Below, piece by piece: positions 6,901 to 60,729 of a stretch of DNA of 64,000 nt. Numbering within the stretch: position 1 is the stretch's first letter; each line of letters begins with the position of its first letter. The DNA is taken from assembly GCA_000004985.1 (NCBI GenBank), contig GG738850.1. One strand, written 5' to 3'. A program made the translations under genes and the position numbers. The DNA comes from Naegleria gruberi (lineage: Eukaryota). The notes beneath the pieces are model-generated. The model worked only from the letters and a program-made list of their open reading frames with translations. It was not told where the DNA came from and made no database searches.

Positions 6901-8976
6901 AAATGTTTCTTACTTGTGCACTTTGTTCTCTTGTTGGTCGAGAGCTGGATGGTGTTTGAGGAGGTTGGTAGACAGGTTTTTCAGGAGTCTTTACTTCAGG
7001 TAAGTCATTGTTAACCTCCTCAACCTGAACGCTTAAGCTTTGTCTTTCAAAAGCCATAACTTCCTCTTCATCAGTTGAAGAATTTGTTGATTTGACTTCG
7101 TCATCTTCATCATCTGATGAAATATCTGATAGAACTTCCTCTTCCTTTTTTCTTAATTGAGATTCTACCAATTCTTCCAAATTAGTTTCAGGAAGGAGAT
7201 GAACAAGAGGTTTCAAACCACCAACTTCTTCGATTCTCTTAAGATTCTCATCTTGGAGCATTAAATTCCACAATGTATGGGCAGCCTTCTTCTTAACATT
7301 ATTAACATCAACAATTGGTGATTCTGATGTCTCAATATCCTCCTTAACGGGATCAATGGATACAATAGAAACCAATGACTCGATACCACCTTCTTCACGG
7401 ATACTATTTGAAGATTCGTCATCAATAGCCATATTTGTAAGAATATTTGATGCTTTTTCAGCAATTTTCAATTCTTGAAGTGATTTGTAGCTCTTCAAAA
7501 ATTGAATAACAATAGGAATACCTCTCAATTCATAGATTTGCTTTCTATTTTCCTTTACAATTGACAAATTGTTTAACAATGTTAAAACGTTTTCCAAAGT
7601 TGTAAAATTATCACTTTCACTAATTGGATAAAGTTGTAACGAGTTGAGCAAAGATGGTATGAGATTTGAATTACTACCCATAATCAACGCATTCTCTTCA
7701 TCTAGAGAAAGTGAGGCCATGGCACCTGTCACTTTATAGACAACATCTCTATACATTTTCATATTCTTAGATGACAACTTGAGAGCAGTCAAAATAATAC
7801 TGCAAAGAATTTCTAAACCTTTCTGTTCTCTTATTTTGTCTCTAACTTCGCGACTATTTCCAGCCATATTCCATAGAATACCACTGGATGTTTTCACTTG
7901 TTCAATATCGTTAATTTTGATAGAACTTGCGGATTGTTTGATTTCTGTGAGTAATTTTTGGATCATTTCACTACTTTCGAATAAATTGTCATTGACAGGA
8001 GTATTATTAGTGGAAGGAGTATTGTTATTGCCAGACTTTTCATTTCTTGGAGATAAAATAAGTTTAGATGAAAGAATCTGAATGATATGTGAAGTATTTC
8101 TCTTCACATTCGCAAATTTAGAATTAGATAATATGATTAACTTTTCCACTAGGATCTTTGTGTCAATAGTATTTTGATTCAAATTTGGAATCATGACAAA
8201 TCTTTTAACATTTTCAATCAATAATAAATTCCACAAGCAGGCAGTCACACCTTCAATTATTTCCTGTGGGTGATCTTCTTCACTACCTGCATTGATTTTA
8301 CAAATCAATGAACAGAGGAAAGTAACTCCACCTAATTTCATAACCTGTTCACCAATTGTACTTTCTAAACAAAGAGATGAGAGTGCAATTAGTAAATTAT
8401 AAATAGTTGTTACATTCTGCTCGTCAACTAATCCACTAGAAACTAATTCTTCTAATGTCTTTATCATATTATTCAAATATTCATTGACTTTTCCTAATCC
8501 AACAAAGTATTCTCTATTCTTTTCATCAATAAATGTATTCAAAAAAGTACAAGTAATGTTTTCCAATACGGAAATATCTTCTTGATGTTCTGGCTTCATT
8601 CTTTCACACAAACTTTCAATGAGTGTGTGCTTTCTCATGACGGAACCACATTGCTCAATTGCAGAAATGTTACACAAGGTAGCAACAGCTCTCTTTCTTG
8701 TTGTTGCATCAGAACTTGCTATTAAATTTGTAATATTTGCAAATCCATTATGTTTTTCTAACTCCTTGACATCATTTTCTATAAATTTCAAATATTCGAT
8801 ACAAGAAGAATCAATAATATTCAACAACAAATTGGTGATTAATTATTACTATTTAATCATAATATCCACATACCTTCTTTAATTAATTTTTGAAACATGC
8901 CAGCAATCTGTGATCGTTTCTTATGATCATCCGAAGGTGTTGTACCTTCCAAGCTACACAACTTTTCAATATTCAT
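3971..8976 (-). CDS. Large TBC-domain (Rab GTPase-activating) protein, about 1,636 aa, with a PEVK-like low-complexity linker; 2 exons (8874..8976, 3971..8778)
   Basis: C-terminal TBC domain with RxxxW (RPRIW), Arg finger IxxDxxR (IEKDLKRT) and Gln finger YxQ (VSYSQSF). The long ORF has no in-frame ATG until far inside. An upstream exon (MNIEKLCSLEGTTPSDDHKKRSQIAGMFQKLIKE) joins in frame through a 95-nt intron (GTATGT donor at 8873, acceptor ...tttatag at 8780/8779). The middle 6280-6850 encodes a P/E/K/V-rich repetitive region. Confidence 0.75.
6280..6850 (-). repeat. Low-complexity coding repeat (PEVK-like: EPVKTP/KPE/EVVIP units) inside the TBC gene
   Basis: The translation is dominated by P, E, K and V in short degenerate repeats (KPTEEVEEVKIKEPEQVKPEPIVEKKPEIVKPIIKNVEPIPEPKKVVVETPKEQ...). 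Confidence 0.5.
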
Positions 8977-15013: not shown

Positions 15014-16397
15014 ATGTCATCAGAAACAAAAGTTGTATCGGATACATCAGTGCCACTCTATCAGGTCGATGATACCAATAAATTGCAATGCTCTACACCA
15101 ACATCATCAACTATTCACTTGTTCACCAAGTCAATATTAACATCAAATAAGCAACAAATAATTGGTGATTTAAATAGTGAAAGTACTACTCAACAACATC
15201 CTATTGAACCTGGTAATATTCATTGTAGTAGATTAGCTTCCGATTTAAATCAAGCCTCCACAGTATACTTTATTAACAAATCTAAATTATTCAAAATTAA
15301 ATATGAATTACCTAGTAGTGAAGTAAATGTATGGAAACCAACCAAGAATGCTAAATTACCTTATCCTTTACTTATTTCCGATATTGATGTTACTAAAATT
15401 TATCAATCCACATTAGATGTTAATTTCCAAGGTATTGAAATCGATAAGAATAGAATTGGTTTAACTGATGATATGGGAAATATTTATATTTTAAATAACA
15501 CATTTTCTACTAGTAATAATGAGGAAGATGATGAGGAAACTGATAACAGTTCAAAGAAGAGAAAAGTTGACGAAAAGAGTACTATTCAATGTGTTTACAA
15601 TAATATTGATACAATTAAATATCATGTTAAAGGTCACACTTCACTTAAATTCCATCCAACTAATGAAGCTGTTATTATTAAGAGTACTTTTGAAACTAAG
15701 AACGTTTCTATTTTTGATATCAATAACCAAAAGAGCATATTTTCTGTTAACACAATGCAAAATCCAACCAAATTGCATACCTTTGAAATTCCACAATCAA
15801 ATAATACATTATTAGCAATTGGAGAATATAACAATGTTTCAATTTGGGATTTCAGAACAAACAAACCAGTTAATAGACTGACTAGAACTAGAGGAATTGT
15901 TTATGATATGGATATTACAACCAATGTTAAATGTGGTAAAAATAATTCTAATGCCTTATTGGGTGTTATTGGAAGTGACAGAACTGTCTACATGTATGAC
16001 ACTATGAAATGGTCTCCAATTCACAAGTGGCAAAATTGTTTGAAATATGCTGTAAGTAGACAATCTTTTGAAAGATTCTTTAATCAATGTATTATTATAG
16101 CCATCTTACTTATCCTTCTCAAATATTAATAAGGAATTGTGCTACGTTGCTGGTTTTGATAATAGTGAATTCAAATGTGGTAATTTCGTTGATCAAAAAC
16201 AACAAAGAAAGGGTAGAGGTCATGGTCTCTATGCTGACAATAGATGGATTGGTATGACTAAACCGAATGCGCAAGATACTATCGTTGGTATTAGTATGAA
16301 TGGTTCTTTATATGTTATTGAACATCCACACCGAATGGCTCCAAACTTGAATGATTTAGTTCCTTCTACAGAAGCTCAAGATGTCATGGACGAATAA
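15014..16397 (+). CDS. Hypothetical protein with WD40-like repeats, 2 exons (15014..16051, 16134..16397), about 433 aa
   Basis: An ORF ending artificially inside a GTAAGT intron (16052..16133, 82 nt) continues in frame as ...KWQNCLKYA|ELCYVAGFDNSEFKCGNF.... WD-like strands include NVSIWDFRTNKPV and DRTVYMYDT. Contains the NLS-like DNSSKKRK cassette at 15544-15567. Confidence 0.6.
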
Positions 16398-17023: not shown

Positions 17024-17302
17024 CTATTTAAAATAATACATTGCAACTACCAAGAAAAACATACTAAGTAAGGTTACTTGTAATCTGTTATTTCCATCCA
17101 CAATTGCTTCTAATAACTTATCATTGCTTTCTAATAACTTATCATTGCTTTCTAATAACTTATCATTGCTTTCTAACAACTTGGCATTGCTTTCTAACAA
17201 TTTGGCATTGCCTTCTTCCATAGTTTCTTTAAGGCTTTGGATTTGGGCTCTAACTGAGTGGTTGGATGATCCTCCTGATGAACTGCTTGTGTAGCCTTCC
17301 AT
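17024..17302 (-). CDS. Tail-anchored coiled-coil mini-protein, paralog 1 (92 aa) with 5 KLLESN(A/D) heptads
   Basis: MEGYTSSSSGGSSNHSVRAQIQSLKETMEEGN + (AKLLESN)x5 + ...LLSMFFLVVAMYYFK. The single C-terminal TM segment ends 2 residues before the stop. Paralogous to 18815..19051 and 19416..19631, with conserved 5' and 3' flanks. Confidence 0.6.
   Translation of the reverse strand: MEGYTSSSSGGSSNHSVRAQIQSLKETMEEGNAKLLESNAKLLESNDKLLESNDKLLESNDKLLEAIVDGNNRLQVTLLSMFFLVVAMYYFK
17105..17215 (-). repeat. 21-bp tandem repeat x5 (cttatcattgctttctaataa / cttggcattgctttctaacaa) encoding KLLESN[DA] heptads
   Basis: Direct inspection of 17101-17220; unit length 21 = one heptad. The paralogs carry 2 copies and about 1 copy respectively. 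Confidence 0.8.
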
Positions 17303-18814: not shown

Positions 18815-19051
18815 CTATTTAAAATAATACATTGTAATCACCAAGGAAAACATACTAAGTAAGGCTGCTAGTACTCTGTTATTCCCATCCTTAATTGCTT
18901 CTAATAACTTATCATTGCTTTCTAACAACTTGGCATTGCCTTCTAACAACTTAGTATTGCCTTCTTCCATAGTTTCTTTAAGGCTTTGGATTTGGGCTCT
19001 AACTGAGTGGTTGGATGATCCTCCTGATGAACTGCTTGCACTGTCTACCAT
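18815..19051 (-). CDS. Tail-anchored coiled-coil mini-protein, paralog 2 (78 aa)
   Basis: MVDSASSSSGGSSNHSVRAQIQSLKETMEEGNTKLLEGNAKLLESNDKLLEAIKDGNNRVLAALLSMFSLVITMYYFK. About 85% identical to paralog 1 outside the repeat. Confidence 0.6.
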   Translation of the reverse strand: MVDSASSSSGGSSNHSVRAQIQSLKETMEEGNTKLLEGNAKLLESNDKLLEAIKDGNNRVLAALLSMFSLVITMYYFK

Positions 19052-19415: not shown

Positions 19416-19631
19416 CTATTTGAAAAAATACATTGCAACCACCAAGGAAAACATACTAAGGAAGGTTACTTGTAATCTGTTATTTCCTTCCACAATTGCT
19501 TCTAATAACTTATCATTGCTTTCTAGCAACTTAGTATTGCCTTCTTTCATAGTTTCTTTAAGGCTTTGGATTTGGGTTCTAACTGAGTGGTTGGATGATC
19601 TTCTTGATGAACTGCTTGTGTAGCCTTCCAT
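19416..19631 (-). CDS. Tail-anchored coiled-coil mini-protein, paralog 3 (71 aa)
   Basis: MEGYTSSSSRRSSNHSVRTQIQSLKETMKEGNTKLLESNDKLLEAIVEGNNRLQVTFLSMFSLVVAMYFFK. The 3' flank ttggccttctattt(a/g)aaa(t/a)aatacattg is conserved in all three copies. Confidence 0.6.
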   Translation of the reverse strand: MEGYTSSSSRRSSNHSVRTQIQSLKETMKEGNTKLLESNDKLLEAIVEGNNRLQVTFLSMFSLVVAMYFFK

Positions 19632-20039: not shown

Positions 20040-22055
20040 ATGAAAACCCTATTGTCGTTAGCAGGCAGACTAACAAGTCTCACCATGCTGTTATTCTTAT
20101 ATTGTTTACTTGTTGCTTTAAACAATTCGACAGTAGAAGCATCCATTGATCCACTCTATAAAATGTCAACATTTATTGGTGGTGGCACATCACCCATTAC
20201 AAATGGCATACTCACTACAAATGCTACACTCTCTAGACCTAGTGGTTTAGCTTTATACAGAGGAGAAGTCTATCTAGTAGATTCTGCAAGAATTCTAAAA
20301 GTTAACAATCATAACAATTCCCTTACTATTATTGCTGATGTAAATGCAATGTTGAATAATCCATTTGGTATTTGTTTGAATGATGAAGGTGAAATTTTTA
20401 TTGTTGAGCGAGCTTCACATGTGGTTCGTAAAATTTTGACAAATGGTACAATTATTGTATTTGCTGGAATTGTTAATCAACAAGGTTATTCTGGGGATGG
20501 TGGTTTGGCTGTAAATGCAGCTCTTAATTGGCCATATGATGTAGCATGTGATTTAAAGACTGGTGATGTTTACATTTCAGATAATGAGAATCAACTTATT
20601 CGAAAGGTGTTCAAAAATGGAACTATTACAACAATTGCTGGATCTAGATCTGGAGGCACAACACAAGATGGATCTTTAGCCACCCAAACTGTAATTAATC
20701 GACCAATGATGATGTCTCTGAGTTCGAATGGTAATCTCTACTTTACTTCAAATATTTGTACAATTCGAAAGATCAGTACGAATCAAACTATTTCAACAGT
20801 TGCTGGCGATGGTCAAAATAATAATTATCGTAAAAATGACATTCTAGCTACATTAGTAACTCTGGATGTACCATTTGGAGTCGATGAAGGTCCATTTGGT
20901 GAATTGTACATTGCAGAAACTTACCTTAGTGCTATTCGAAAGGTTTCTCCAAATGGAATAATTTCAAAAATTGCTGGAACTTTCCAATCAGGAGTTTCAC
21001 TGAATACCGTTTTAGATGCTTCCAAAGCTCAAATAACCGATCCATATGATGTCATAGTTGATCCTTCTACTGGAATAGTTTACTTTTCCGAATATTCATC
21101 AGATGTTAAACGAGTTGCTAAATTGGAGCCATACTGTACATTTCCTTTTGAATTAATTAATGGAACATGTACTTACTCATGTTATGGAATTGGATATGAT
21201 GATGCAAGAGTTTGTGCTGGGCATGGAATTTGCCTTTCGAATAATACATGTCAATGTGAATCAGGATGGAAAGGTAATAATCAATGTTCCTTACCTTCAT
21301 GTGAATTATTGAATAATTGTACTGGAAATGGAATGTGTATTTCAAATAATACTTGTGAATGTAATTCCAAATGGAAACATATTGATTGTTCCATTAGTAT
21401 TTGTATTCCATATTTGAATTTAAATAGTCAATTACAATGTTCTCAAGATTTAAATAGTCAATTATTAACATTTAATGAATTACAATCAAATATTAATTTA
21501 AATCCAATTAATTTAAATGAAAATCAACAAATTACTTTTATTTTAGGTAATAATTTTACAAATAATTTGGAAAATTCAAAATATTTTATTAGTTCATCAA
21601 TTTCTCAATCAAATTTACAATTTTATTCAAATGTTACAAATTTAGTTTTACAAAATTCAAATTCTACATTCATTCAACTCCAATTATCAAATTCAATTCA
21701 ATTCCATTTCAAAAATATCGACATTGAACTGTCATCTTTCAATTATACATGTTTAAGATATGACTATTTGTTAAATAGATGGACAAATGAATCAATTTCT
21801 ACAATAATAGATTTATCCGTGAATGAAATTACATGTTCAACTAATTATTTATCTACATCAATTGTTATTCAGAGATATAGAATTATTGAAGTAGTTCCAT
21901 CAAAGTCAAATGTCATCCCAAAGGTATCGAATAGTAATGGTGGAACTGTTGTTAATCCAAAAGAATCTAATAGAGGAATTATTAGTCATGCAATTAGACT
22001 TGTCGGTTCAACAACTTTGACTGTTGTAATAATGATGATATTTAACATTTTGTAA
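20040..22055 (+). CDS. Secreted, C-terminally membrane-anchored protein with NHL repeats followed by EGF-like cysteine modules (teneurin/tenascin-like architecture)
   Basis: Signal peptide MLLFLYCLLVALNNSTVEA. At least five NHL-type repeats (GxxGYSGDGGLAVNAALNWPYDVACD..GDVYISDNENQLIRKV etc.). EGF-like CxxHGICLSNNTCQCESGWKGNNQC / CTGNGMCISNNTCECNSKWKHIDC. Asn-rich stalk with many NxT/S sites. C-terminal hydrophobic LVGSTTLTVVIMMIFNIL. Confidence 0.75.
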   Translation: MKTLLSLAGRLTSLTMLLFLYCLLVALNNSTVEASIDPLYKMSTFIGGGTSPITNGILTTNATLSRPSGLALYRGEVYLVDSARILKVNNHNNSLTIIADVNAMLNNPFGICLNDEGEIFIVERASHVVRKILTNGTIIVFAGIVNQQGYSGDGGLAVNAALNWPYDVACDLKTGDVYISDNENQLIRKVFKNGTITTIAGSRSGGTTQDGSLATQTVINRPMMMSLSSNGNLYFTSNICTIRKISTNQTISTVAGDGQNNNYRKNDILATLVTLDVPFGVDEGPFGELYIAETYLSAIRKVSPNGIISKIAGTFQSGVSLNTVLDASKAQITDPYDVIVDPSTGIVYFSEYSSDVKRVAKLEPYCTFPFELINGTCTYSCYGIGYDDARVCAGHGICLSNNTCQCESGWKGNNQCSLPSCELLNNCTGNGMCISNNTCECNSKWKHIDCSISICIPYLNLNSQLQCSQDLNSQLLTFNELQSNINLNPINLNENQQITFILGNNFTNNLENSKYFISSSISQSNLQFYSNVTNLVLQNSNSTFIQLQLSNSIQFHFKNIDIELSSFNYTCLRYDYLLNRWTNESISTIIDLSVNEITCSTNYLSTSIVIQRYRIIEVVPSKSNVIPKVSNSNGGTVVNPKESNRGIISHAIRLVGSTTLTVVIMMIFNIL

Positions 22056-27412: not shown

Positions 27413-30400
27413 ATGAACCCAAACAATCGACCACCTCATCCTACAACAGCAGGAGGTTATTATTCTTCATCATCTGGAAATAATAATAACGTGGTCGGCG
27501 GTGGTGGTTTTAATCAACAACAAAATCACTCTTCATCAGGAATTCCTCCACATAATAGACAAGGCTTTCCTACGGGACAAGGAAGAACAAATCAAAATGG
27601 CCCAATTGTACAAAATAGACAACAACATCCACCAAGAAATGTAAATAATCCTAATACAAATCCAAATAATATTCCATCAACAATGCAACAAAATAGAAAA
27701 AAACATCCATCAGGTAGTCAATCCTCATATCCAACACAACCTCATCAATCATATCATAACAATACAACAGGAAGTGGATTTAGTACACAAGCTGGACATA
27801 AAGCAACGTTTGGAAAAAAAGGTCAAGAAGTTGTTGTTGAACAATTATCAGCAAAATTAGGATTTCCGGATGTCTTTCTATGTGAACAAAATTCTAGTAG
27901 ACCGGTCATGGAATTGTCTTTTACACCTAGTACTGCTCGTGATGGTTATGTTGACAAGTCATTTTCATATATTGATCGTGAACCAATTGATTCTCATGGA
28001 ACTCACTTCTTTAATAATGATTTTTATAATTTATTAGAAAAATCTGAACAAACTTTAAGGGATGAGTACAAGACTTTTTCAACAAACAAAACAAGGGAAG
28101 AAATGAAACAAAGATTCGAAAATGCCTACAATTCTTGCAGTTGTACAGCTAATAATTCCTTCTTCCCAAAACTCACAGATACAGGTACTATGTTCAAAGC
28201 CCTTGCTGGAAGACCTGATGAGCAAAAAAGATCATCCCTTGCATCTTCAAGAACATCTCTTAGAGAATTGGCATCAAAACTTTCTAGATATTATGTTAAA
28301 CCTAACTTCTTTGAACTTTTAGCACAAAACAATATTCCATTCTTCAGAGCCTTATGGTACACTAAAATTCTTATTAGAGACATTAATACCAACATTACAA
28401 ATGTAAAGGATCTAGCACAAGATTTAACAACCAAGTTTTGTGACTACTTGCTTACATCTTGTAACGATGACAGTACAGATCCTAAAAAGAAGAACTCAAT
28501 TGTGTATACCATCAACTTTTTATCCTATTGCCTTGAAGAGAATTTATTGAATGAAAATGTTTTAGGACAAAGGCTATTAGAAATTTTAGAAATCAAGTTT
28601 GGTATCAAACCAAAAGCAAGCAAGGATACACCTCTCATGGATGCATACTTTTTCTCATTACTTTATGTTAAAACAAGTGATCAAATTTATCAACAACTGT
28701 CAACTACAATCCAATCATCTAAAAAGGTTGGCTCGGTGATCAAATTTTATGTATTACAATTATTTAAATTATTTATGATGCATTCTTCCGATCCAAAATT
28801 TACATTTGAAATTTTTAGAAGACTAAATCCTGGACAACAACAACTTTCATTAGACAGTGTTAAAAATCTATTTTGCAAAATTAAGGATGATATTTATGCC
28901 ATCAATGTACTTGATAGACATAATTGTAACATTCCAGAGTTATATAATATTCTCTTGAATAACAAGGAAGTTGGTGTTCAACTCATATCTACCATTTGCA
29001 AGTGGGCTATTACTCCAAAACGATTCCAAAACTATAGGCCATATATTGCAGGTACCTTGGTGAATAACTTTATCAAACAAAATCCTACAATGAAGAAACA
29101 AGTAGAAGATACCTTATTCAAAGAAGTTCTAAATTATTCAGAGGAGCCTACTCCAGATACTTACAAAAATATGTTGAAACTATTCAATGAGCTAATTCTT
29201 CAAAATAACTTTTCCATTAGTGAATATATCAAATATCTTACATCTAGAGGTTTTAATGTAGCTAAGACAGATGAATTTAACACTAGGCACACCAATATTC
29301 TCAAAAATTTGCCCTCATATGATCCTAACACAAAGAATAAGATTTACTCTAAACTCTATGGCACCAAACATGAAATTGTGAGGAAAAACCAGCAAACTGA
29401 AACTGAAATCCAAGAAAATATTTTCAAACTTATTAATGGAGGCAGTGATCATAATATTTCCTCCATTATTGAAAGTATGACTCTTTTACCAGAAAATGGA
29501 ATGCAGTTTGAAATTACACAACAAATAGCTGAGCATGTAAAGACTATGGATCTTGCATATTTATCGGAACAAACAATAGATAGTATTTTGGCAATTATGA
29601 TCTCAGTATCCAATCTTAGAGCTTTTAGAGATATTGTGTATAATATTACTACCAAACTCATCTCTGGAGAATTTAAATCTCCTAATCTAGAAATTAAGAT
29701 GTTTTCTATTATTAAGAATAGTCTCCAGCTCTTCATTTCTTTAGACGATTCAGATATCATTGATATATTCCAAAAACGATTCAAAACAACAAACAACAGA
29801 AATATTCAATCTATTATCCATAGATACATTACCGAAATATCAACAACTCCAAATGCTGACCCTTTCAAAACAAAAATAACCAAATTTACCAACGATTGTA
29901 ATGTCATTCCTGCTCCAATTAATATCGAGCAATCGCCTACAATCCACCCATTTACACAGTATATACAAAGCCAAGATATTATTTTGATACCGTCCAACAT
30001 CTTGGTTTCCGAATTAACCAAATCCCCTACCAAATTCTCCAACGATCAACTTAAACATTTAATTGAGGTACTATTCGAAAAATTCCAAAAGCATAGAGTA
30101 GACACTTACATAACAGTCTTGAGAGATATGTATACATTTAGTCATCTATTATCTGATACTTCAATTATTGAATGCTTTAAGGATTTCATTATTTCAACAC
30201 TTGACAGTACTCAGTACATTAGAGAAAAGCACTCTTCACTCATTCTATTCTGTATGAAAGCTGTAACTTGTGGTGTTCTCTCTGGATACACCTTCCTCAA
30301 TCATATATTATTTAACGTATTTGATAATCTCAAGTCTAAGGTTGCAACTATTTCTAAGCCTAATCCACAAGTCCAAGCCATTACATCTATTCATGCTATG

Positions 30401-32128
30401 TTATCATCTACAAAGACCAGTATCTTCCAACATGTAAACTTTATAAGAGTTTTCTCGAACTTTTCCAGATGCTTATCAAAAGAAAGAATAACTACTCTCG
30501 CTAATAATTGTGGTATATCTGAGGAAGTGGAAGCTGTTGACAGAGAAATTTATGAAGACGTCAAGACCACACTTCTCTATGATTTCCTTGGCCCTATAGA
30601 AGCAAAAGAAACCATCCACAAGATGTCAATTTCTTGCAAGAGTATTCATGATAACGTCAAATCAAGCAAGAAAAGTACAAAAGATATCTTTGCATTCAGT
30701 TCTCTTGTCTATGAAGCCATGATAGAAATACTATTGGATTATCTTTCTAATGAAAAGTCTTTGCAGGACATTAGTCGTACATTGTCCTACACTCAAGATT
30801 GTTTAGGACCACTTTACGAACTTCCATCTCTTCAAACCAAGCCAAAAGAAGGGGATGGCACAGGTAAAAGCAATTCCAAAGATAGTGATTATGGTAACAA
30901 ATATCAAGCCATCACAACTTTGGTTGCCAACTTGTGTAAACCATTTTCAACAATCAGAGATATGGTTCCTGAGAAGCTATTCTCCTTCCTTAGTCAAAGT
31001 ACAAGTATTAATGACTATCTTCAATTTATAATGTCTCTCTCCAATCAGAGTGACAAGTGGAGAATAGCGTTAGACTCCCAACTTTTATTCTTATTTATGT
31101 TTACTTGGAATAGAAGAAAGGCACTCACAAAAGAACAATACCATCACTTTGTCGCAAGAAAAGGTCAGGAAAATTCCTTCTACTTTTATGCCAAATCACT
31201 TTTACTTACCTCATTCTACCCACCTTTCTCTGAGCTACAAGATGTTATTTTAGATCATTTCAAATTATCAATCAACTATAGCGAAAAACGTCAACAAGAT
31301 ATTGAAGCTCTCTTACCTATTGTTGAAGAGCTTATTCGACTCGATTTTTCCAAAGCAGAAACAGCCTGCAAATGTATTCTGGATGCCATTCAAGCCATCT
31401 CCAATCCCTCCTCCTCACAATCCTCTACCCCTGGCACTCCTACTCCACATTCATTCCCTTCCACTCGTGAAAGACTTACTACTTGTTTATTATGTCTTAA
31501 AGAAATTATTTTCTCCTCTCCACTTTTGGAATCACATGAAGATAAATTTGGAGAAAGAAAGAGAACCACTACAGTTCCACAAATCAAATCAATTTTAATT
31601 AATTTATGTACCAACAAGATTTTGCCATCAGTATTTAACACACCTATCCAAAAACCAGAAGACGTAGCATTATATGATATTTATTATTTAATTTATGGAA
31701 TGTTAGCCAAGTTAAAGATACCCCAAGAAGAATTGAATAAGGAATTTGAAAAATTATTCCAAAAAGAGAATAATCTACAAGTCTCTAATCCAAGAACTAT
31801 ACAAGTTGGAACACCTGTCAGCACACCAACCTCCAGTAGAAGAACTCCAACACCTGGTGGTGCCAGCAAAATGTCTCCAATTATTAGCCCTCAACAATCA
31901 CCAGTTCCAATGTCTCCACAAGTTGCTACCGTTAGACAAGAGCAAAACAGGGTCATCAGCAGCTGGTTTGTAATTGAGGATTACGTTTCCAATTGTTCTC
32001 ATTGTAACTCTTGCCATGGTAATTTAACTCCTGCACGTTTCCAGGGTAAAGTTGTTAAGAAGACTGAATTGATATTTGCCAAAAAGCCAGAAACCGTCAA
32101 CTCCAGCAATCCTTTCCAACCACATTAA
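27413..32128 (+). CDS. Large (1,571 aa) hypothetical nuclear protein with an N-terminal Q/N/P-rich disordered region; function unassigned
   Basis: Single continuous ORF preceded by a tataaata element at about 27363. The N-terminal 130 aa are low complexity (NNNVVGGGGFNQQQNHSS..., PPRNVNNPNTNPNN); the rest is predicted helical. A +1-frame ORF with a KKRK NLS continues past the stop (see findings). Confidence 0.7.
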   Translation: MNPNNRPPHPTTAGGYYSSSSGNNNNVVGGGGFNQQQNHSSSGIPPHNRQGFPTGQGRTNQNGPIVQNRQQHPPRNVNNPNTNPNNIPSTMQQNRKKHPSGSQSSYPTQPHQSYHNNTTGSGFSTQAGHKATFGKKGQEVVVEQLSAKLGFPDVFLCEQNSSRPVMELSFTPSTARDGYVDKSFSYIDREPIDSHGTHFFNNDFYNLLEKSEQTLRDEYKTFSTNKTREEMKQRFENAYNSCSCTANNSFFPKLTDTGTMFKALAGRPDEQKRSSLASSRTSLRELASKLSRYYVKPNFFELLAQNNIPFFRALWYTKILIRDINTNITNVKDLAQDLTTKFCDYLLTSCNDDSTDPKKKNSIVYTINFLSYCLEENLLNENVLGQRLLEILEIKFGIKPKASKDTPLMDAYFFSLLYVKTSDQIYQQLSTTIQSSKKVGSVIKFYVLQLFKLFMMHSSDPKFTFEIFRRLNPGQQQLSLDSVKNLFCKIKDDIYAINVLDRHNCNIPELYNILLNNKEVGVQLISTICKWAITPKRFQNYRPYIAGTLVNNFIKQNPTMKKQVEDTLFKEVLNYSEEPTPDTYKNMLKLFNELILQNNFSISEYIKYLTSRGFNVAKTDEFNTRHTNILKNLPSYDPNTKNKIYSKLYGTKHEIVRKNQQTETEIQENIFKLINGGSDHNISSIIESMTLLPENGMQFEITQQIAEHVKTMDLAYLSEQTIDSILAIMISVSNLRAFRDIVYNITTKLISGEFKSPNLEIKMFSIIKNSLQLFISLDDSDIIDIFQKRFKTTNNRNIQSIIHRYITEISTTPNADPFKTKITKFTNDCNVIPAPINIEQSPTIHPFTQYIQSQDIILIPSNILVSELTKSPTKFSNDQLKHLIEVLFEKFQKHRVDTYITVLRDMYTFSHLLSDTSIIECFKDFIISTLDSTQYIREKHSSLILFCMKAVTCGVLSGYTFLNHILFNVFDNLKSKVATISKPNPQVQAITSIHAMLSSTKTSIFQHVNFIRVFSNFSRCLSKERITTLANNCGISEEVEAVDREIYEDVKTTLLYDFLGPIEAKETIHKMSISCKSIHDNVKSSKKSTKDIFAFSSLVYEAMIEILLDYLSNEKSLQDISRTLSYTQDCLGPLYELPSLQTKPKEGDGTGKSNSKDSDYGNKYQAITTLVANLCKPFSTIRDMVPEKLFSFLSQSTSINDYLQFIMSLSNQSDKWRIALDSQLLFLFMFTWNRRKALTKEQYHHFVARKGQENSFYFYAKSLLLTSFYPPFSELQDVILDHFKLSINYSEKRQQDIEALLPIVEELIRLDFSKAETACKCILDAIQAISNPSSSQSSTPGTPTPHSFPSTRERLTTCLLCLKEIIFSSPLLESHEDKFGERKRTTTVPQIKSILINLCTNKILPSVFNTPIQKPEDVALYDIYYLIYGMLAKLKIPQEELNKEFEKLFQKENNLQVSNPRTIQVGTPVSTPTSSRRTPTPGGASKMSPIISPQQSPVPMSPQVATVRQEQNRVISSWFVIEDYVSNCSHCNSCHGNLTPARFQGKVVKKTELIFAKKPETVNSSNPFQPH

Positions 32129-33006
32129 TGGTGATAACAGTTCAAAGAAGAGAAAATCTGAATCTCCAATAACTCTTGACAATCATATCAATGAAGCTTC
32201 TATTGAATTCCCTGATAGTAAAAAGTTGAAACAATAAATAAGCTTAATTGTGTGGAAACTATTTATTAACAAACTGTGGTCACAAGTCTTCACAATTTGA
32301 AATTATTGGTGGTGTCAGTCATACTTCCTTAACTAAACCTGATATGTGTAAACATTCCATTTACTTGGTAAATCTTAGCTACTTAAACTGGTTTCAATAA
32401 AGTTGAATAAATAGGAAATAAATTCTTGGAGTATTATTCTAGAAGTTCTTGAAGATTTCATTCCCTGGAAAATATTATTGGTTCATCATGATTTTGAATA
32501 ATGACAAAATATATAAAAGTAATATTGAATTTGCTCCACTCCTTTTCAACAAATTTCATAGAAGTCCGATGTTACTAATAGTTGTTATTAATCCCAAAAG
32601 CTTAAGAGAAGACACGCCACTCAACTCTCTCAATCACCAATTCAAAATATTGCCAAAAGACGATCAGTGTAACAAAGTGATTAAAGTGAGAAAATAATTG
32701 TAGATGAATTAATTCTTAGTTGCTATTATCGATCATTGCTGTTTTGTGTGTTAATTGCTCCATCATAAGACTGTTGTAATAATGAACACAGCCAAGAAAT
32801 ATTATTCATGTTGTTGTTTTGGTGATTGAAGAAGACGTTCGAGGGTTGAAGTTTGCTGAATTTTTCACTTCCTTGTTTTTCAACCACAGAAATTATCAAC
32901 AAGCCAAAAATGCCCTCTCAAACTTTTGTTGTAAAATGTGTTTTACTAGGTTTACTCCAACAAAATTTTAAAAAACTTGTTGAAAAAAAATACGTCACAC
33001 TAGAAA

Positions 33007-33705
33007 ATGACTGCCGGCAAAAATAAGAGAGTTGTCAAGGGTAAGAAGACTAAGAAGATTACCGATCCATTCGCCAAGAAGGAATGGTTCGACGTCTTTG
33101 CTCCTCACCCATTCAACAAGAAGAAGACTGAACCATTCACCAAGACCCCAATCAATAAAACCGCTGGTACTAAAATCTCCACTGAAGCTTTGAAGGGAAG
33201 AGTCTTCGAAATCTCTGCTGCTGATTTGTTGAATGAAGAAGAACAACAACATCAACTCATCAGATTGGCTGTCGGTGATGCCAAGAGTGAAAATAAGAAG
33301 GCTTTGACTGTCTTCAACGGTTTGAGATTCACTGTTGATAAGCTCAGATCTTTGGTCAAGAAGTGGCACACACTCATTACCACCAGAATTAACGTTAAGA
33401 CTGCTGATGGTTTCCAAATGAGAGTTTTCGCTTTAGGTATTACCAAGAGAAGACAATTGCAAACTCACAAGAGAACTTATGCTTACAAGTCTCAAGTCAT
33501 GAGAATCACTGCCAGAATGAAGGATGCTATCAACAAGAAGGCTACTGCTTCTCCAGTCAATGAATTCGTTGAAAAGGTCGTTACTGGTCAATTGGGTAAG
33601 GAAATTGAAAAGTCCTGTGCTTCTATCTTCCCAATGAAGGACGTCTGTATCTGCAAGATTAAGGTCACCAAGACACCAAAGGATCTCGCTTCCGCTCTCC
33701 ACTAA
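33007..33705 (+). CDS. RPS3A: 40S ribosomal protein eS1 (S3a)
   Basis: MTAGKNKRVVKGKKTKKITDPFAKKEWFDVFAPHPF...GRVFEISAADL...VKKWHTLI...IFPMKDVCICKIKV aligns along its length with human RPS3A and yeast Rps1. 232 aa, ending ...PKDLASALH, shorter than orthologues at the C-terminus. Confidence 0.95.
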   Translation: MTAGKNKRVVKGKKTKKITDPFAKKEWFDVFAPHPFNKKKTEPFTKTPINKTAGTKISTEALKGRVFEISAADLLNEEEQQHQLIRLAVGDAKSENKKALTVFNGLRFTVDKLRSLVKKWHTLITTRINVKTADGFQMRVFALGITKRRQLQTHKRTYAYKSQVMRITARMKDAINKKATASPVNEFVEKVVTGQLGKEIEKSCASIFPMKDVCICKIKVTKTPKDLASALH

Positions 33706-34113
33706 ATAAATTAAATCCCAAAAAATTAAAATTCATTTAAAAATTCAAAATTTTATCTTTTTACAAGATTTTTAATTCTTGTAATCCATAAATATCTATA
33801 AGTTCATAAAGATCTCTCGTATGACTCTATTCCTGATATCAAGACTGATATTTTACTTTAAAGTAAAAGTTGAAACACAAAATTGAAACTCAATTGAGAG
33901 AGATGTAATGATGTGATGTTGGTTGAAGTAGAGATTGAGTTTGACTTTATTTACTTCCATCATCAACACACCACATCACAATGTTATTGAGGGCATTGCC
34001 CAAAAATTGAGAACCGGACTAGGTTTAAGTGGTACACCAGAAAAAAACTACAGCCGTTTGTGTCTTCTATTAAAAAAATATAATAACGTACTGGACTGGA
34101 AATTGAGTCGAAT

Positions 34114-59040: not shown

Positions 59041-60729
59041 ATGGGAACCCCAGATTGGGGTAATGATTTAACACTCAACTATGACACTTGCAATATTATG
59101 TCACTCACACAAAAACAATCAAAAAAAATGAGTAAACGAAATAGACAAGATTTGGAAAATCAATTAATTAATTATTCGGAGGAAAATAATATGGACGAGA
59201 AAGCAAAAAAGGTTTCAATGCAACGACAAGAAATATTTTCAGATGATGTTTGTTTTGAAATAATTTGCATGCTCGATGATTCGTGGTTTATTTTGAATAA
59301 TTGTTCATTGATTTCAAAACAATTCTTTAATGTGATCAAGGAACGTTCAAAACTTGTTATTCAATTTAATCAAAAATTTACAGAAACAAGAATTGAATTA
59401 TTCATGAAAAGTCAATTTATGAATAGTATTGTTCATCTTAAATTTTATAGAAGCTCGCTTGACTCTATAGAACAAGTCAAATTAATAAGTGAAATGAAAC
59501 AATTAAAATTACTTGATATTCGTGGAATTCAAATAGGAGATGAAGGAGCCAAATTTATAAGTGAAATGAAACAATTGAGATCACTTAGTATTTATAACAA
59601 TCAAATTGGTGTAGCAGGAGTCAAATCAATAAGTGAAATGAAACAATTAACATCACTTGCAATTTGTAACAATCGAATTGGTGATGAAGGAGTCAAATTT
59701 ATAAGTGAAATGAAACAATTAACGTCACTTACTATATGTTACAATCAAATTGGTGTTGAAGGAGTAAAATCCATAATTGAAATGAACCAATTAAAATCAC
59801 TTAATATATCTTACAATGAAATTGGAGATGAAGGCGCGAAATCAATATGTGAAATGAAACAATTAACATCACTTAATATATGTGACAATCGAATTGGTGT
59901 AGAAGGAATCAAATCAATATGTGAAATGAAACAATTAACATTACTTAATATATCTAAGAATCAAATTGGTGATGAAGGAGTCAAATTCATAATTGAAATG
60001 AAGCAATTAACGTCACTTGACATATGTTACAATCGAATTGGTGATGAAGGAGCCAAATCCATAAGTGAAATGAAACAATTGAAATCACTTGATATTTATA
60101 ATAATCAAATTAGTGATGAAGGAGTCAAATTTATAAGTGAAATGAAACAATTAACATCACTTGATATTAGTGCAAATGAAATTGGTGTAGAAGGAACCAA
60201 ATCAATATGTGAAATGAAACAATTAACATTACTTAATATATCTAAGAATCAAATTGGTGATGAAGGAGTCAAATTCATAATTGAAATGAAGCAATTAACG
60301 TCACTTGACATATGTTACAATCGAATTGGTGATGAAGGAGCCAAATCCATAAGTGAAATGAAACAATTGAAATCACTTGATATTTATAATAATCAAATTA
60401 GTGATGAAGGAGTCAAATTTATAAGTGAAATGAAACAATTAACATCACTTGATATTAGTGCAAATGAAATTGGCGTTGAAGGAGTCAAATCAATAAGTGA
60501 AATGAAACAATTAACATCACTTAATATTAATAACAATGAAATTGGTGATGAAGGAGCCAAATTTATAAGTGAAATGAAACAATTAACATCACTTAATATA
60601 TGTTACAATCGAATTGGTGTTGAAGGAGTCAAATTAATAGGTGAAATGAAACAATTGAAATCACTTAATATTAATTACCAAAAGACGAAATCTAAGGATT
60701 TGGTATGGATTACAAATGAGACTGCTTAA
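59041..60729 (+). CDS. Leucine-rich-repeat protein of the ribonuclease-inhibitor (RNI/NLR-type) class, about 17 tandem 24-residue repeats (562 aa)
   Basis: Repeat consensus (K/S)ISEMKQLTSL(N/D)I(S/C/Y)xNxIGDEGVKF, i.e. LxxLxLxxNxIGxxGxxxL. The 120-aa N-terminal region is non-repetitive, and there is no NACHT/NB-ARC domain in this ORF. Confidence 0.8.
   Translation: MGTPDWGNDLTLNYDTCNIMSLTQKQSKKMSKRNRQDLENQLINYSEENNMDEKAKKVSMQRQEIFSDDVCFEIICMLDDSWFILNNCSLISKQFFNVIKERSKLVIQFNQKFTETRIELFMKSQFMNSIVHLKFYRSSLDSIEQVKLISEMKQLKLLDIRGIQIGDEGAKFISEMKQLRSLSIYNNQIGVAGVKSISEMKQLTSLAICNNRIGDEGVKFISEMKQLTSLTICYNQIGVEGVKSIIEMNQLKSLNISYNEIGDEGAKSICEMKQLTSLNICDNRIGVEGIKSICEMKQLTLLNISKNQIGDEGVKFIIEMKQLTSLDICYNRIGDEGAKSISEMKQLKSLDIYNNQISDEGVKFISEMKQLTSLDISANEIGVEGTKSICEMKQLTLLNISKNQIGDEGVKFIIEMKQLTSLDICYNRIGDEGAKSISEMKQLKSLDIYNNQISDEGVKFISEMKQLTSLDISANEIGVEGVKSISEMKQLTSLNINNNEIGDEGAKFISEMKQLTSLNICYNRIGVEGVKLIGEMKQLKSLNINYQKTKSKDLVWITNETA
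59476..60690 (+). repeat. 72-bp-period coding tandem repeat (about 17 units) including a near-perfect 288-bp (4-unit) tandem duplication at about 59905-60192 / 60193-60480
   Basis: Two 288-nt blocks, both starting aaatcaatatgtgaaatgaaacaattaacattacttaatatatctaagaatcaaattggtgatgaaggagtcaaattcataattg..., occur at an offset of exactly 288 nt. They differ at only 2-3 positions (gaatc vs gaacc; ggtgtag vs ggcgttg). Confidence 0.8.

What the first reader, a model, noticed from the sequence alone, without database searches (positions are those of the whole stretch)
15538..15570. 25-nt exact cassette TGATAACAGTTCAAAGAAGAGAAAA encoding DNSSKKRK shared between two unrelated genes
The identical 25-mer occurs inside the WD-like gene (15543-15567, in-frame TDNSSKKRKVDEK, a classic monopartite NLS) and again at 32133-32157, just past the stop of the 1,571-aa protein in its +1 frame. 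A chance 25-mer identity in 64 kb is very unlikely even allowing for AT bias. This indicates a copied mini-cassette: exon shuffling of an NLS, gene conversion, or a tiny mobile or templated insertion.
Basis: seen in the sequence. Interest (0 to 1): 0.5.

Follow-up and report, generated by a model that had tools for sequence, protein, structure and literature searches.

The report
Identical 25-mer at two ancestral NLS sites
Two unrelated Naegleria gruberi nuclear-protein genes 16.6 kb apart carry the same 25 bases across nuclear-import motifs that each gene already had, so no import signal was newly acquired; the identity is either a tiny DNA-repair copying event or a coincidence.

Summary
The exact 25-mer is real.

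The window is Naegleria gruberi.
- Copy 1 encodes DNSSKKRK in a linker of a WD40 protein.
- Copy 2 is not beyond the Med12 gene. It lies in the conserved Med12 C-terminal tail (KKRK ... KKLKQ*), which a 1-nt frameshift near 32081-32088 cuts off from the annotated 1,571-aa model.

KKRK is invariant at both positions in the orthologues examined from N. fowleri, N. lovaniensis and Willaertia, and in two unnamed environmental (ENA/JGI) relatives. So NLS shuffling and a mobile cassette are rejected.

What is specific to N. gruberi is the 25/25 nucleotide identity. The same columns give 15/25, 15/25 and 12/25 in the other three species. The identity includes non-preferred synonymous codons (P = 1.6e-3 even given the same peptide) and has unrelated flanks.

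My best reading (about 0.5) is a short templated copy between the two sites, seeded by microhomology. Coincidence remains a serious rival (about 0.4): roughly 1e-4 to 3.5e-4 per window, so about 0.2 per genome scanned. No close relative was available to decide. This is a minor curiosity plus a gene-model correction.

The parts
15541..15565 (+). Copy 1 of the 25-mer. Reads (AC)T GAT AAC AGT TCA AAG AAG AGA AAA = (T)DNSSKKRK, residues about 177-184 of the WD40 protein.
32132..32156 (+). Copy 2 of the 25-mer. Reads (GG)T GAT AAC AGT TCA AAG AAG AGA AAA = (G)DNSSKKRK, in the +1 frame relative to the annotated Med12 ORF.
15554..15565 (+). KKRK codons of the WD40 protein: an ancestral monopartite-NLS-like motif, invariant in 5 orthologues.
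32145..32156 (+). KKRK codons of the Med12 tail: an ancestral motif present in the N. fowleri, N. lovaniensis, Willaertia and JGI-metagenome Med12 tails.
15014..16397 (+). WD40 gene. Exons are 15014-16051 and 16101-16397, with a 49-nt GTAAGT...TATAG intron at 16052-16100. The spliced product is identical to the N. gruberi 'predicted protein' P0001 (444 aa).
27413..32128 (+). Med12 (NAEGRDRAFT_78416) as annotated: 1,571 aa, ending ...NPFQPH-TAA.
32088..32237 (+). The true Med12 C-terminal tail in the +1 frame: QKPSTPAILSNHINGDNSSKKRKSESPITLDNHINEASIEFPDSKKLKQ*. It is homologous to the tails of the orthologues.
32079..32090 (+). Most likely site of the 1-nt frameshift (CCAAAAAGCCAG: an A5 run and a CC). 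Frame 0 matches the orthologues up to ...ELIFAKK, and the +1 frame matches them afterwards. Whether this is a sequencing error or a real allele is unresolved.
   Evidence: inference
32220..32234 (+). Terminal basic cluster KKLKQ, followed by the stop. It is conserved at the extreme C-terminus of Med12 as KKLKQ, KKLKH, KKVKQ or KKVKM.

Best explanation
Both sites are old, independently inherited KKRK motifs that match the classical monopartite nuclear-localisation consensus. One sits in a poorly conserved acidic linker of a WD40 protein. The other sits in the C-terminal tail of Mediator subunit Med12.

In the N. gruberi lineage only, the DNA across the two motifs became identical for 25 nt. The most likely cause is a short, non-allelic, templated copying event. 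In this reading, a broken or stalled 3' end inside one purine-rich KKRK-coding run annealed to the near-identical run 16.6 kb away on the same chromosome and strand. It copied about 10-25 nt of the neighbouring linker (DNSS) and then returned. The patch was in frame and replaced only a variable linker, so it was tolerated.

Med12 is the more likely donor, because its orthologues already read D-S-S-x-KKRK.

Shown: the identity, its restriction to N. gruberi, the ancestry of both KKRK motifs, the sharp borders, and the identity at synonymous sites. Inferred: the copying event itself, its mechanism and its direction.
For: - The 25/25 identity has completely unrelated flanks, and the two genes share no other similarity.
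- The identity is lineage-specific. The same 25 columns anchored on KKRK are 15/25 identical in N. fowleri, 15/25 in N. lovaniensis and 12/25 in Willaertia, with longest shared runs of 9, 7 and 11 nt.
- Identity extends to synonymous choices that are not the preferred codons: AAC 22%, AGT 20%, AAG 40%. P(identical codons | identical peptide) = 1.6e-3. Selection for the same peptide therefore does not explain it.
- Seeding homology already existed. The orthologues encode KKRK as AAG AAR AGA AAA in both genes, and N. fowleri WD40 has TCA AAG AAA AAA AGA AAA.
- The two loci are unusually close in N. gruberi: 16.6 kb in direct orientation, against about 145 kb in N. fowleri, about 155 kb in N. lovaniensis and different contigs in Willaertia.
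- Chance expectation is 1e-4 to 3.5e-4 per window.
- The only KKRK pair in the window is the pair that matches.
- N. lovaniensis Med12 reads T GAT AGT TCT ATG AAG AAA AGA AAA, against N. gruberi T GAT AAC AGT TCA AAG AAG AGA AAA. This suggests the Med12 copy is native.
- Templated patches under about 25 bp are a known repair outcome (PMC12426944).
Against: - No close relative of N. gruberi could be found, so no pre-event state is seen and the direction is not established.
- The WD40 copy also resembles its own N. fowleri orthologue: ACT CAT TCA AAG... against ACT GAT AAC AGT TCA AAG.... Each copy can therefore be derived by ordinary drift from already similar ancestors.
- Canonical gene conversion needs flanking homology, which is absent.
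- Known Pol-theta templated insertions and short template switches use templates next to the break, not 16.6 kb away (PMC12426944; PMC5453318).
- The finding was selected because it is a long match. At about 0.2 chance events per genome scanned, coincidence is not remote.
- The whole genome could not be searched for further copies.
Confidence: 0.5

Rival explanations
1. Coincidence helped by constraint. Both genes independently keep a KKRK motif encoded by purine-rich codons next to S/N/D-rich disordered linker, and drift in N. gruberi happened to make 25 consecutive bases identical. The finding surfaced because the scan selects extreme matches.
For: - 12 of the 25 nt are the conserved KKRK codons.
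- The sister species already show 12-15/25 identity in these columns.
- Each N. gruberi copy resembles its own orthologue: Med12 D-S-S-x-KKRK, and N. fowleri WD40 T-H-S-KKKRK with TCA AAG.
- The per-window chance of 1e-4 to 3.5e-4 becomes about 0.2 per genome and more than 1 over many genomes.
- No known repair pathway fits cleanly.
Against: - The remaining roughly 10-13 nt must match at about 0.32 per nt.
- Identical non-preferred synonymous codons have P = 1.6e-3 even granting the same peptide.
- None of 300 codon-shuffled windows exceeded 22 nt.
- The match falls on the single KKRK pair in the window, between loci that are close together only in this species.
Confidence: 0.4
2. Selection at the nucleotide level. 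The 25-nt element is kept identical because it works as RNA or DNA, for example as a shared small-RNA or RNA-binding-protein target that co-regulates two nuclear-protein mRNAs.
For: Identity at synonymous sites. The length is in the small-RNA range (inference only).
Against: The nucleotide sequence is not conserved in the orthologues of either gene: 12-17/25 identity to the N. gruberi 25-mer. There are no other copies in the window and no direct evidence of any kind.
Confidence: 0.04
3. Exon shuffling or a tiny mobile cassette delivered an NLS to one or both genes.
For: The same in-frame peptide occurs in two unrelated genes.
Against: KKRK pre-exists at both positions in the orthologues examined. 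There are no intron borders at the tract, no flanking repeats and only two copies, and no hits in the metagenome or viral collections.
Confidence: 0.01
4. An assembly or sequencing artefact created the second copy.
For: A 1-nt frameshift, possibly a sequencing error, lies about 45-50 nt upstream of copy 2.
Against: Both copies sit in frame inside sequence that aligns with the orthologues on both sides. A chimeric read would not insert exactly 25 in-frame bases.
Confidence: 0.01

Closest known systems
Classical monopartite NLS (SV40 large-T type, consensus K-K/R-X-K/R)
   Same: KKRK, and KKRKV in the WD40 protein, matches the consensus (own knowledge). The motif is invariant across the orthologues of both host proteins while the surrounding linker varies. 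Med12 is a nuclear Mediator subunit.
   Different: Nuclear import was not tested. Exposure is only weakly suggested by a low-confidence model.
Polymerase-theta templated insertions / synthesis-dependent MMEJ
   Same: A small tract, under about 25 bp as a rule, primed by microhomology and copied from another DNA stretch (PMC12426944; PMC2943611, listed).
   Different: Known templates flank the break. Here the template would be 16.6 kb away, and there is no net insertion or deletion scar relative to N. fowleri. Whether Naegleria has Pol theta was not tested.
Non-allelic (ectopic) gene conversion
   Same: One locus is overwritten by a sequence from another locus on the same chromosome, and the identity is species-specific.
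   Different: Canonical conversion needs tens to hundreds of bp of flanking homology (own knowledge). Here the flanks are unrelated, and pre-existing homology was at most about 12-15 nt.
Short-range replication template switching (Löytynoja & Goldman 2017, PMC5453318; PMC7954356; PMC8604942)
   Same: It produces clustered multi-base changes that copy a nearby sequence, including within coding genes.
   Different: The described events are local and typically create inverted copies. Here the copy is direct and 16.6 kb away.

Membership tests
Classical monopartite NLS | Matches K-K/R-X-K/R | tested here: met
   KKRK in both proteins. The consensus is from own knowledge.
Classical monopartite NLS | Motif conserved in orthologues while its surroundings vary | tested here: met
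   K181-K184 are invariant in 5 WD40 orthologues. KKRK is present in 5 Med12 tails.
Classical monopartite NLS | Lies in an exposed or disordered segment | tested here: inconclusive
   The AlphaFold2 model has mean pLDDT 42.7. Residues 161-227 score below 50 with no secondary structure, but the whole model is poor. In Med12 the motif lies in a low-complexity C-terminal tail.
Classical monopartite NLS | Binds importin-alpha and drives nuclear import | not testable with these tools
   Needs a reporter-fusion or binding experiment.
Exon shuffling / mobile mini-cassette | The motif is a gain: absent at that position in orthologues | tested here: not met
   KKRK is present at both positions in the orthologues examined.
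Exon shuffling / mobile mini-cassette | Cassette bounded by introns, or by terminal repeats or target-site duplications | tested here: not met
   The nearest intron is 16052-16100, about 490 nt from copy 1. No GT..AG intron fits at copy 2 (sequence reading). The flanks are unrelated.
Exon shuffling / mobile mini-cassette | Multiple dispersed copies | tested here: inconclusive
   There are only 2 copies in the window, even with 3 mismatches allowed, and 0 in the metagenome and viral collections. The whole N. gruberi genome is not searchable here.
Non-allelic gene conversion / templated patch | Identity tract with abrupt borders, specific to one lineage | tested here: met
   25/25 in N. gruberi against 15/25, 15/25 and 12/25 in three other species. 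The flanks are unrelated.
Non-allelic gene conversion / templated patch | Identity at synonymous sites beyond what codon bias gives | tested here: met
   P = 1.6e-3 for identical codons given the same peptide.
Non-allelic gene conversion / templated patch | Extended flanking homology (canonical homologous-recombination conversion) | tested here: not met
   The local alignment returns only the 25-mer.
Non-allelic gene conversion / templated patch | Donor and recipient polarity shown by a close outgroup carrying the pre-event state | not testable with these tools
   The closest available relatives are about 55% identical at protein level. The metagenome scan found none.
Pol-theta templated insertion (TMEJ) | Template lies next to the break | tested here: not met
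   The copies are 16,591 nt apart. The criterion is from PMC12426944.
Short-range template switch | Local, orientation-reversing copy | tested here: not met
   Both copies are on the + strand, 16.6 kb apart. The criterion is from PMC5453318.

The most novel reading that the evidence does not exclude
The 25-nt element is held identical at the nucleotide level because it functions as a shared cis-element, for example the target of one small RNA or RNA-binding factor, coupling the expression of two nuclear-protein mRNAs in N. gruberi. A related reading is that purine-rich NLS-coding runs act as recurrent microhomology hubs that homogenise neighbouring linkers genome-wide.
Probability: 0.05. Interest if true: 0.55.

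Novelty: new member of a known kind. Interest (0 to 1): 0.22.

Why it matters
The stakes are modest.
- It shows that an apparent 'shared NLS cassette' is in fact two ancient, independently retained import motifs. This is a caution against reading exon shuffling from short shared peptides.
- If the copying reading holds, it is a clean natural example of a microhomology-seeded templated patch fixed in coding DNA, between non-homologous genes kilobases apart, in a heterolobosean. That is further from the break than described templated insertions.
- It corrects a gene model. N. gruberi Med12 (NAEGRDRAFT_78416) is annotated without its conserved tail, which carries KKRK and the terminal KKLKQ, because of a frameshift in the reference.

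Tried and rejected
- A protein search with the Med12 C-terminus plus tail returned nothing. A later search with the middle of Med12 worked.
- Exact-product look-ups for N. gruberi proteins found no contigs, so no other N. gruberi assemblies or reads could be reached.
- The metagenome scan for the 25-mer and for WD40 relatives found nothing. The viral scan also found nothing.
- An intron as the cause of the Med12 frame change is rejected. After the last conserved residues the only GT is at 32096. The possible GT..AG intervals are 11 nt, 45 nt (no frame change) or 52 nt. The 52-nt option has a poor GTCAAC donor and would delete sequence that aligns with the orthologues (sequence reading).
- Programmed +1 frameshifting at CAT TAA T is rejected as unsupported. 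There is no slippery re-pairing, and homology to the orthologues is already in the +1 frame upstream of the stop.
- The WD40 family could not be assigned. All Pfam WD40 hits fall below their cut-offs, and only weak U5-40K similarity was found in the PDB.
- The structure model was too poor (pLDDT 42.7) to justify a fold search.
- A first script was an incomplete stub and gave no result.

Full report
**Observation**

The 25-mer TGATAACAGTTCAAAGAAGAGAAAA occurs exactly twice, both on the + strand, at 15541-15565 and 32132-32156. No further copy appears with up to 3 mismatches, and none appeared in 100 dinucleotide shuffles.

An all-against-all search for exact repeats shows it is the longest match outside two obvious repeat families: small paralogous genes at 17-19.6 kb and an LRR gene at 59-60.7 kb. 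The next longest matches are 19 and 17 nt.

Match lengths outside those families fall about 0.32-fold per nt, which extrapolates to 3.5e-4 matches of 25 nt or more per window. In 300 synthetic windows with codons shuffled within ORFs, the longest match was 15-22 nt.

The 12-nt core AAGAAGAGAAAA occurs only at these two places. The 25-mer has no match in the JGI metagenome or viral contig collections. The repeat is therefore real and not a generic low-complexity motif.

One caveat: 1e-4 to 3.5e-4 per window is about 0.2 per 41-Mb genome (genome size from my own knowledge). A scan over many windows will meet such a match by chance now and then.

**Where it lies**

The window is Naegleria gruberi. 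The spliced product of 15014-16051 + 16101-16397 (49-nt GTAAGT...TATAG intron) is identical to the N. gruberi 'predicted protein' P0001. The 1,571-aa ORF is NAEGRDRAFT_78416, Mediator subunit Med12.

Copy 1 encodes DNSSKKRK in a poorly conserved acidic linker of a WD40 protein. Its family could not be assigned. All Pfam WD40 hits are below their cut-offs, and only weak U5-40K similarity was found.

Copy 2 starts 4 nt after the Med12 stop, in the +1 frame.

**Copy 2 is inside the true Med12 gene**

After the conserved GKVVKKTELLFGKK, the Med12 orthologues of N. lovaniensis and Willaertia magna and a JGI metagenome relative carry a tail with KKRK that ends KKLKQ*, KKVKM* or KKVKQ*. In N. fowleri the model is split, but the ORF that holds the C-terminus has the same tail, ending KKLKH*.

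The N. gruberi +1-frame ORF reads ...SNHINGDNSSKKRKSESPITLDNHINEASIEFPDSKKLKQ* and aligns with these tails. Frame 0 agrees with the orthologues up to ELIFAKK, and the +1 frame agrees afterwards. A 1-nt frameshift therefore lies near CCAAAAAGCC (32079-32088).

No plausible intron explains the frame change. I cannot tell whether it is a reference error or a real allele. It lies about 45-50 nt from the 25-mer and seems unrelated to it.

**Both KKRK motifs are ancestral**

In the WD40 protein, K181-K184 are invariant in N. fowleri, N. lovaniensis, an ENA-derived relative and Willaertia, while the four residues before them vary: THSK, QQHK, GARG, EGNL. In Med12, KKRK is present in all five tails, preceded by DSST or DSSM in N. 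fowleri and N. lovaniensis.

So neither gene acquired its import-type motif from the other. Exon shuffling of an NLS and a mobile cassette are rejected. In addition, no intron borders, flanking repeats or extra copies exist.

**What remains to be explained**

The 13 nt upstream of KKRK (T GAT AAC AGT TCA) and the identical codon choices still need explaining.

| Species | Identity in the 25 columns anchored on KKRK | Longest shared run |
|---|---|---|
| N. gruberi | 25/25 | 25 nt |
| N. fowleri | 15/25 | 9 nt |
| N. lovaniensis | 15/25 | 7 nt |
| Willaertia | 12/25 | 11 nt |

- From the window's codon usage, two independent encodings of DNSSKKRK would be base-identical with P = 1.6e-3. Several of the codons used are minority codons: AAC 22%, AGT 20%, AAG 40%.
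- The flanks are unrelated, and the genes share nothing else.
- The loci are 16.6 kb apart in direct orientation in N. gruberi. They are about 145 kb apart in N. fowleri, about 155 kb in N. lovaniensis, and on different contigs in Willaertia.

**Interpretation**

The pattern has five features: a sharp-edged tract, restriction to one lineage, identity at synonymous sites, an anchor on pre-existing purine-rich microhomology, and nearby loci. This is what a short templated copy would leave.

The mechanism would be a 3' end from one KKRK-coding run priming on the other, copying the adjacent linker and returning. Templated patches under about 25 bp are a known repair outcome (PMC12426944).

Med12 looks like the donor. 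N. lovaniensis Med12 reads T GAT AGT TCT ATG AAG AAA AGA AAA, close to the N. gruberi tract.

The event fits no described pathway cleanly:
- Canonical gene conversion needs flanking homology, which is absent.
- Pol-theta insertions copy sequence next to the break.
- Short template switches are local and inverted (PMC5453318).

The WD40 copy also resembles its own N. fowleri orthologue: ACT CAT TCA AAG AAA AAA AGA AAA. Both copies can therefore be derived by drift from ancestors that were already similar. No close relative of N. gruberi was obtainable, so the pre-event state is unseen.

I put templated copying at about 0.5, coincidence helped by shared constraint at about 0.4, selection at the nucleotide level at about 0.04, and shuffling or artefact at about 0.01 each.

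**Function**

KKRK, and KKRKV in the WD40 protein, fits the classical monopartite NLS consensus (own knowledge). Its strict conservation within variable linkers supports a role in nuclear import for both proteins. Import itself was not tested. The structure model is too weak (mean pLDDT 42.7; residues 161-227 below 50) to say more than that the segment is not confidently folded.

**Verdict**

This is a small curiosity: either a micro-scale ectopic templated copy between two ancestral NLS-coding sites or a rare coincidence. It comes with a useful correction to the N. gruberi Med12 gene model.

Noticed in passing
window 32079-32237 (with 27413-32128): N. gruberi Med12 (NAEGRDRAFT_78416, 1,571 aa) is annotated without its conserved C-terminal tail (KKRK ... 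KKLKQ*). The tail is intact in the +1 frame after a 1-nt frameshift near the A5 run at 32081-32085. Whether this is a reference error or a real truncating allele is unresolved.
   Followed up: yes
window 17024-17302, 18815-19051, 19416-19631 (minus strand): Three paralogous small ORFs of 92, 78 and 71 aa. Each has an S-rich N-terminus, a variable number of 7-aa (S/G)N(A/D)KLLE repeats (21-nt tandem units) and a hydrophobic C-terminal tail, which looks tail-anchored. An 83-nt exact repeat links 17207 and 18956.
   Followed up: partly
window 59041-60729: An LRR gene built of 72-nt (24-aa) repeats of the ...GDEGAKFISEMKQLTSL... type. It contains a 276-nt exact internal duplication at 59910 and 60198.
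   Followed up: no
L003 3001-8151 (N. fowleri VFQX01000002.1): The N. fowleri Med12 model is split into a 1,389-aa gene and a 284-aa gene. The ORF at 7168-8151 holds the conserved C-terminus, including the KKRK tail, so the annotation probably breaks one gene in two.
   Followed up: partly
window 27413-34000; L003, L004, L007: The gene order Med12 - ribosomal protein S3Ae - Ras-family gene is conserved in N. fowleri, N. lovaniensis and Willaertia. In N. gruberi, S3Ae likewise follows Med12; the next gene there was not identified. The WD40 gene lies about 145-155 kb from Med12 in N. fowleri and N. lovaniensis but only 16.6 kb away in N. gruberi, which implies a rearrangement.
   Followed up: partly
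window 20040-22055: A 671-aa secreted-looking protein with teneurin-type NHL and EGF domains. This is unusual-looking for a heterolobosean and was not examined further.
   Followed up: no
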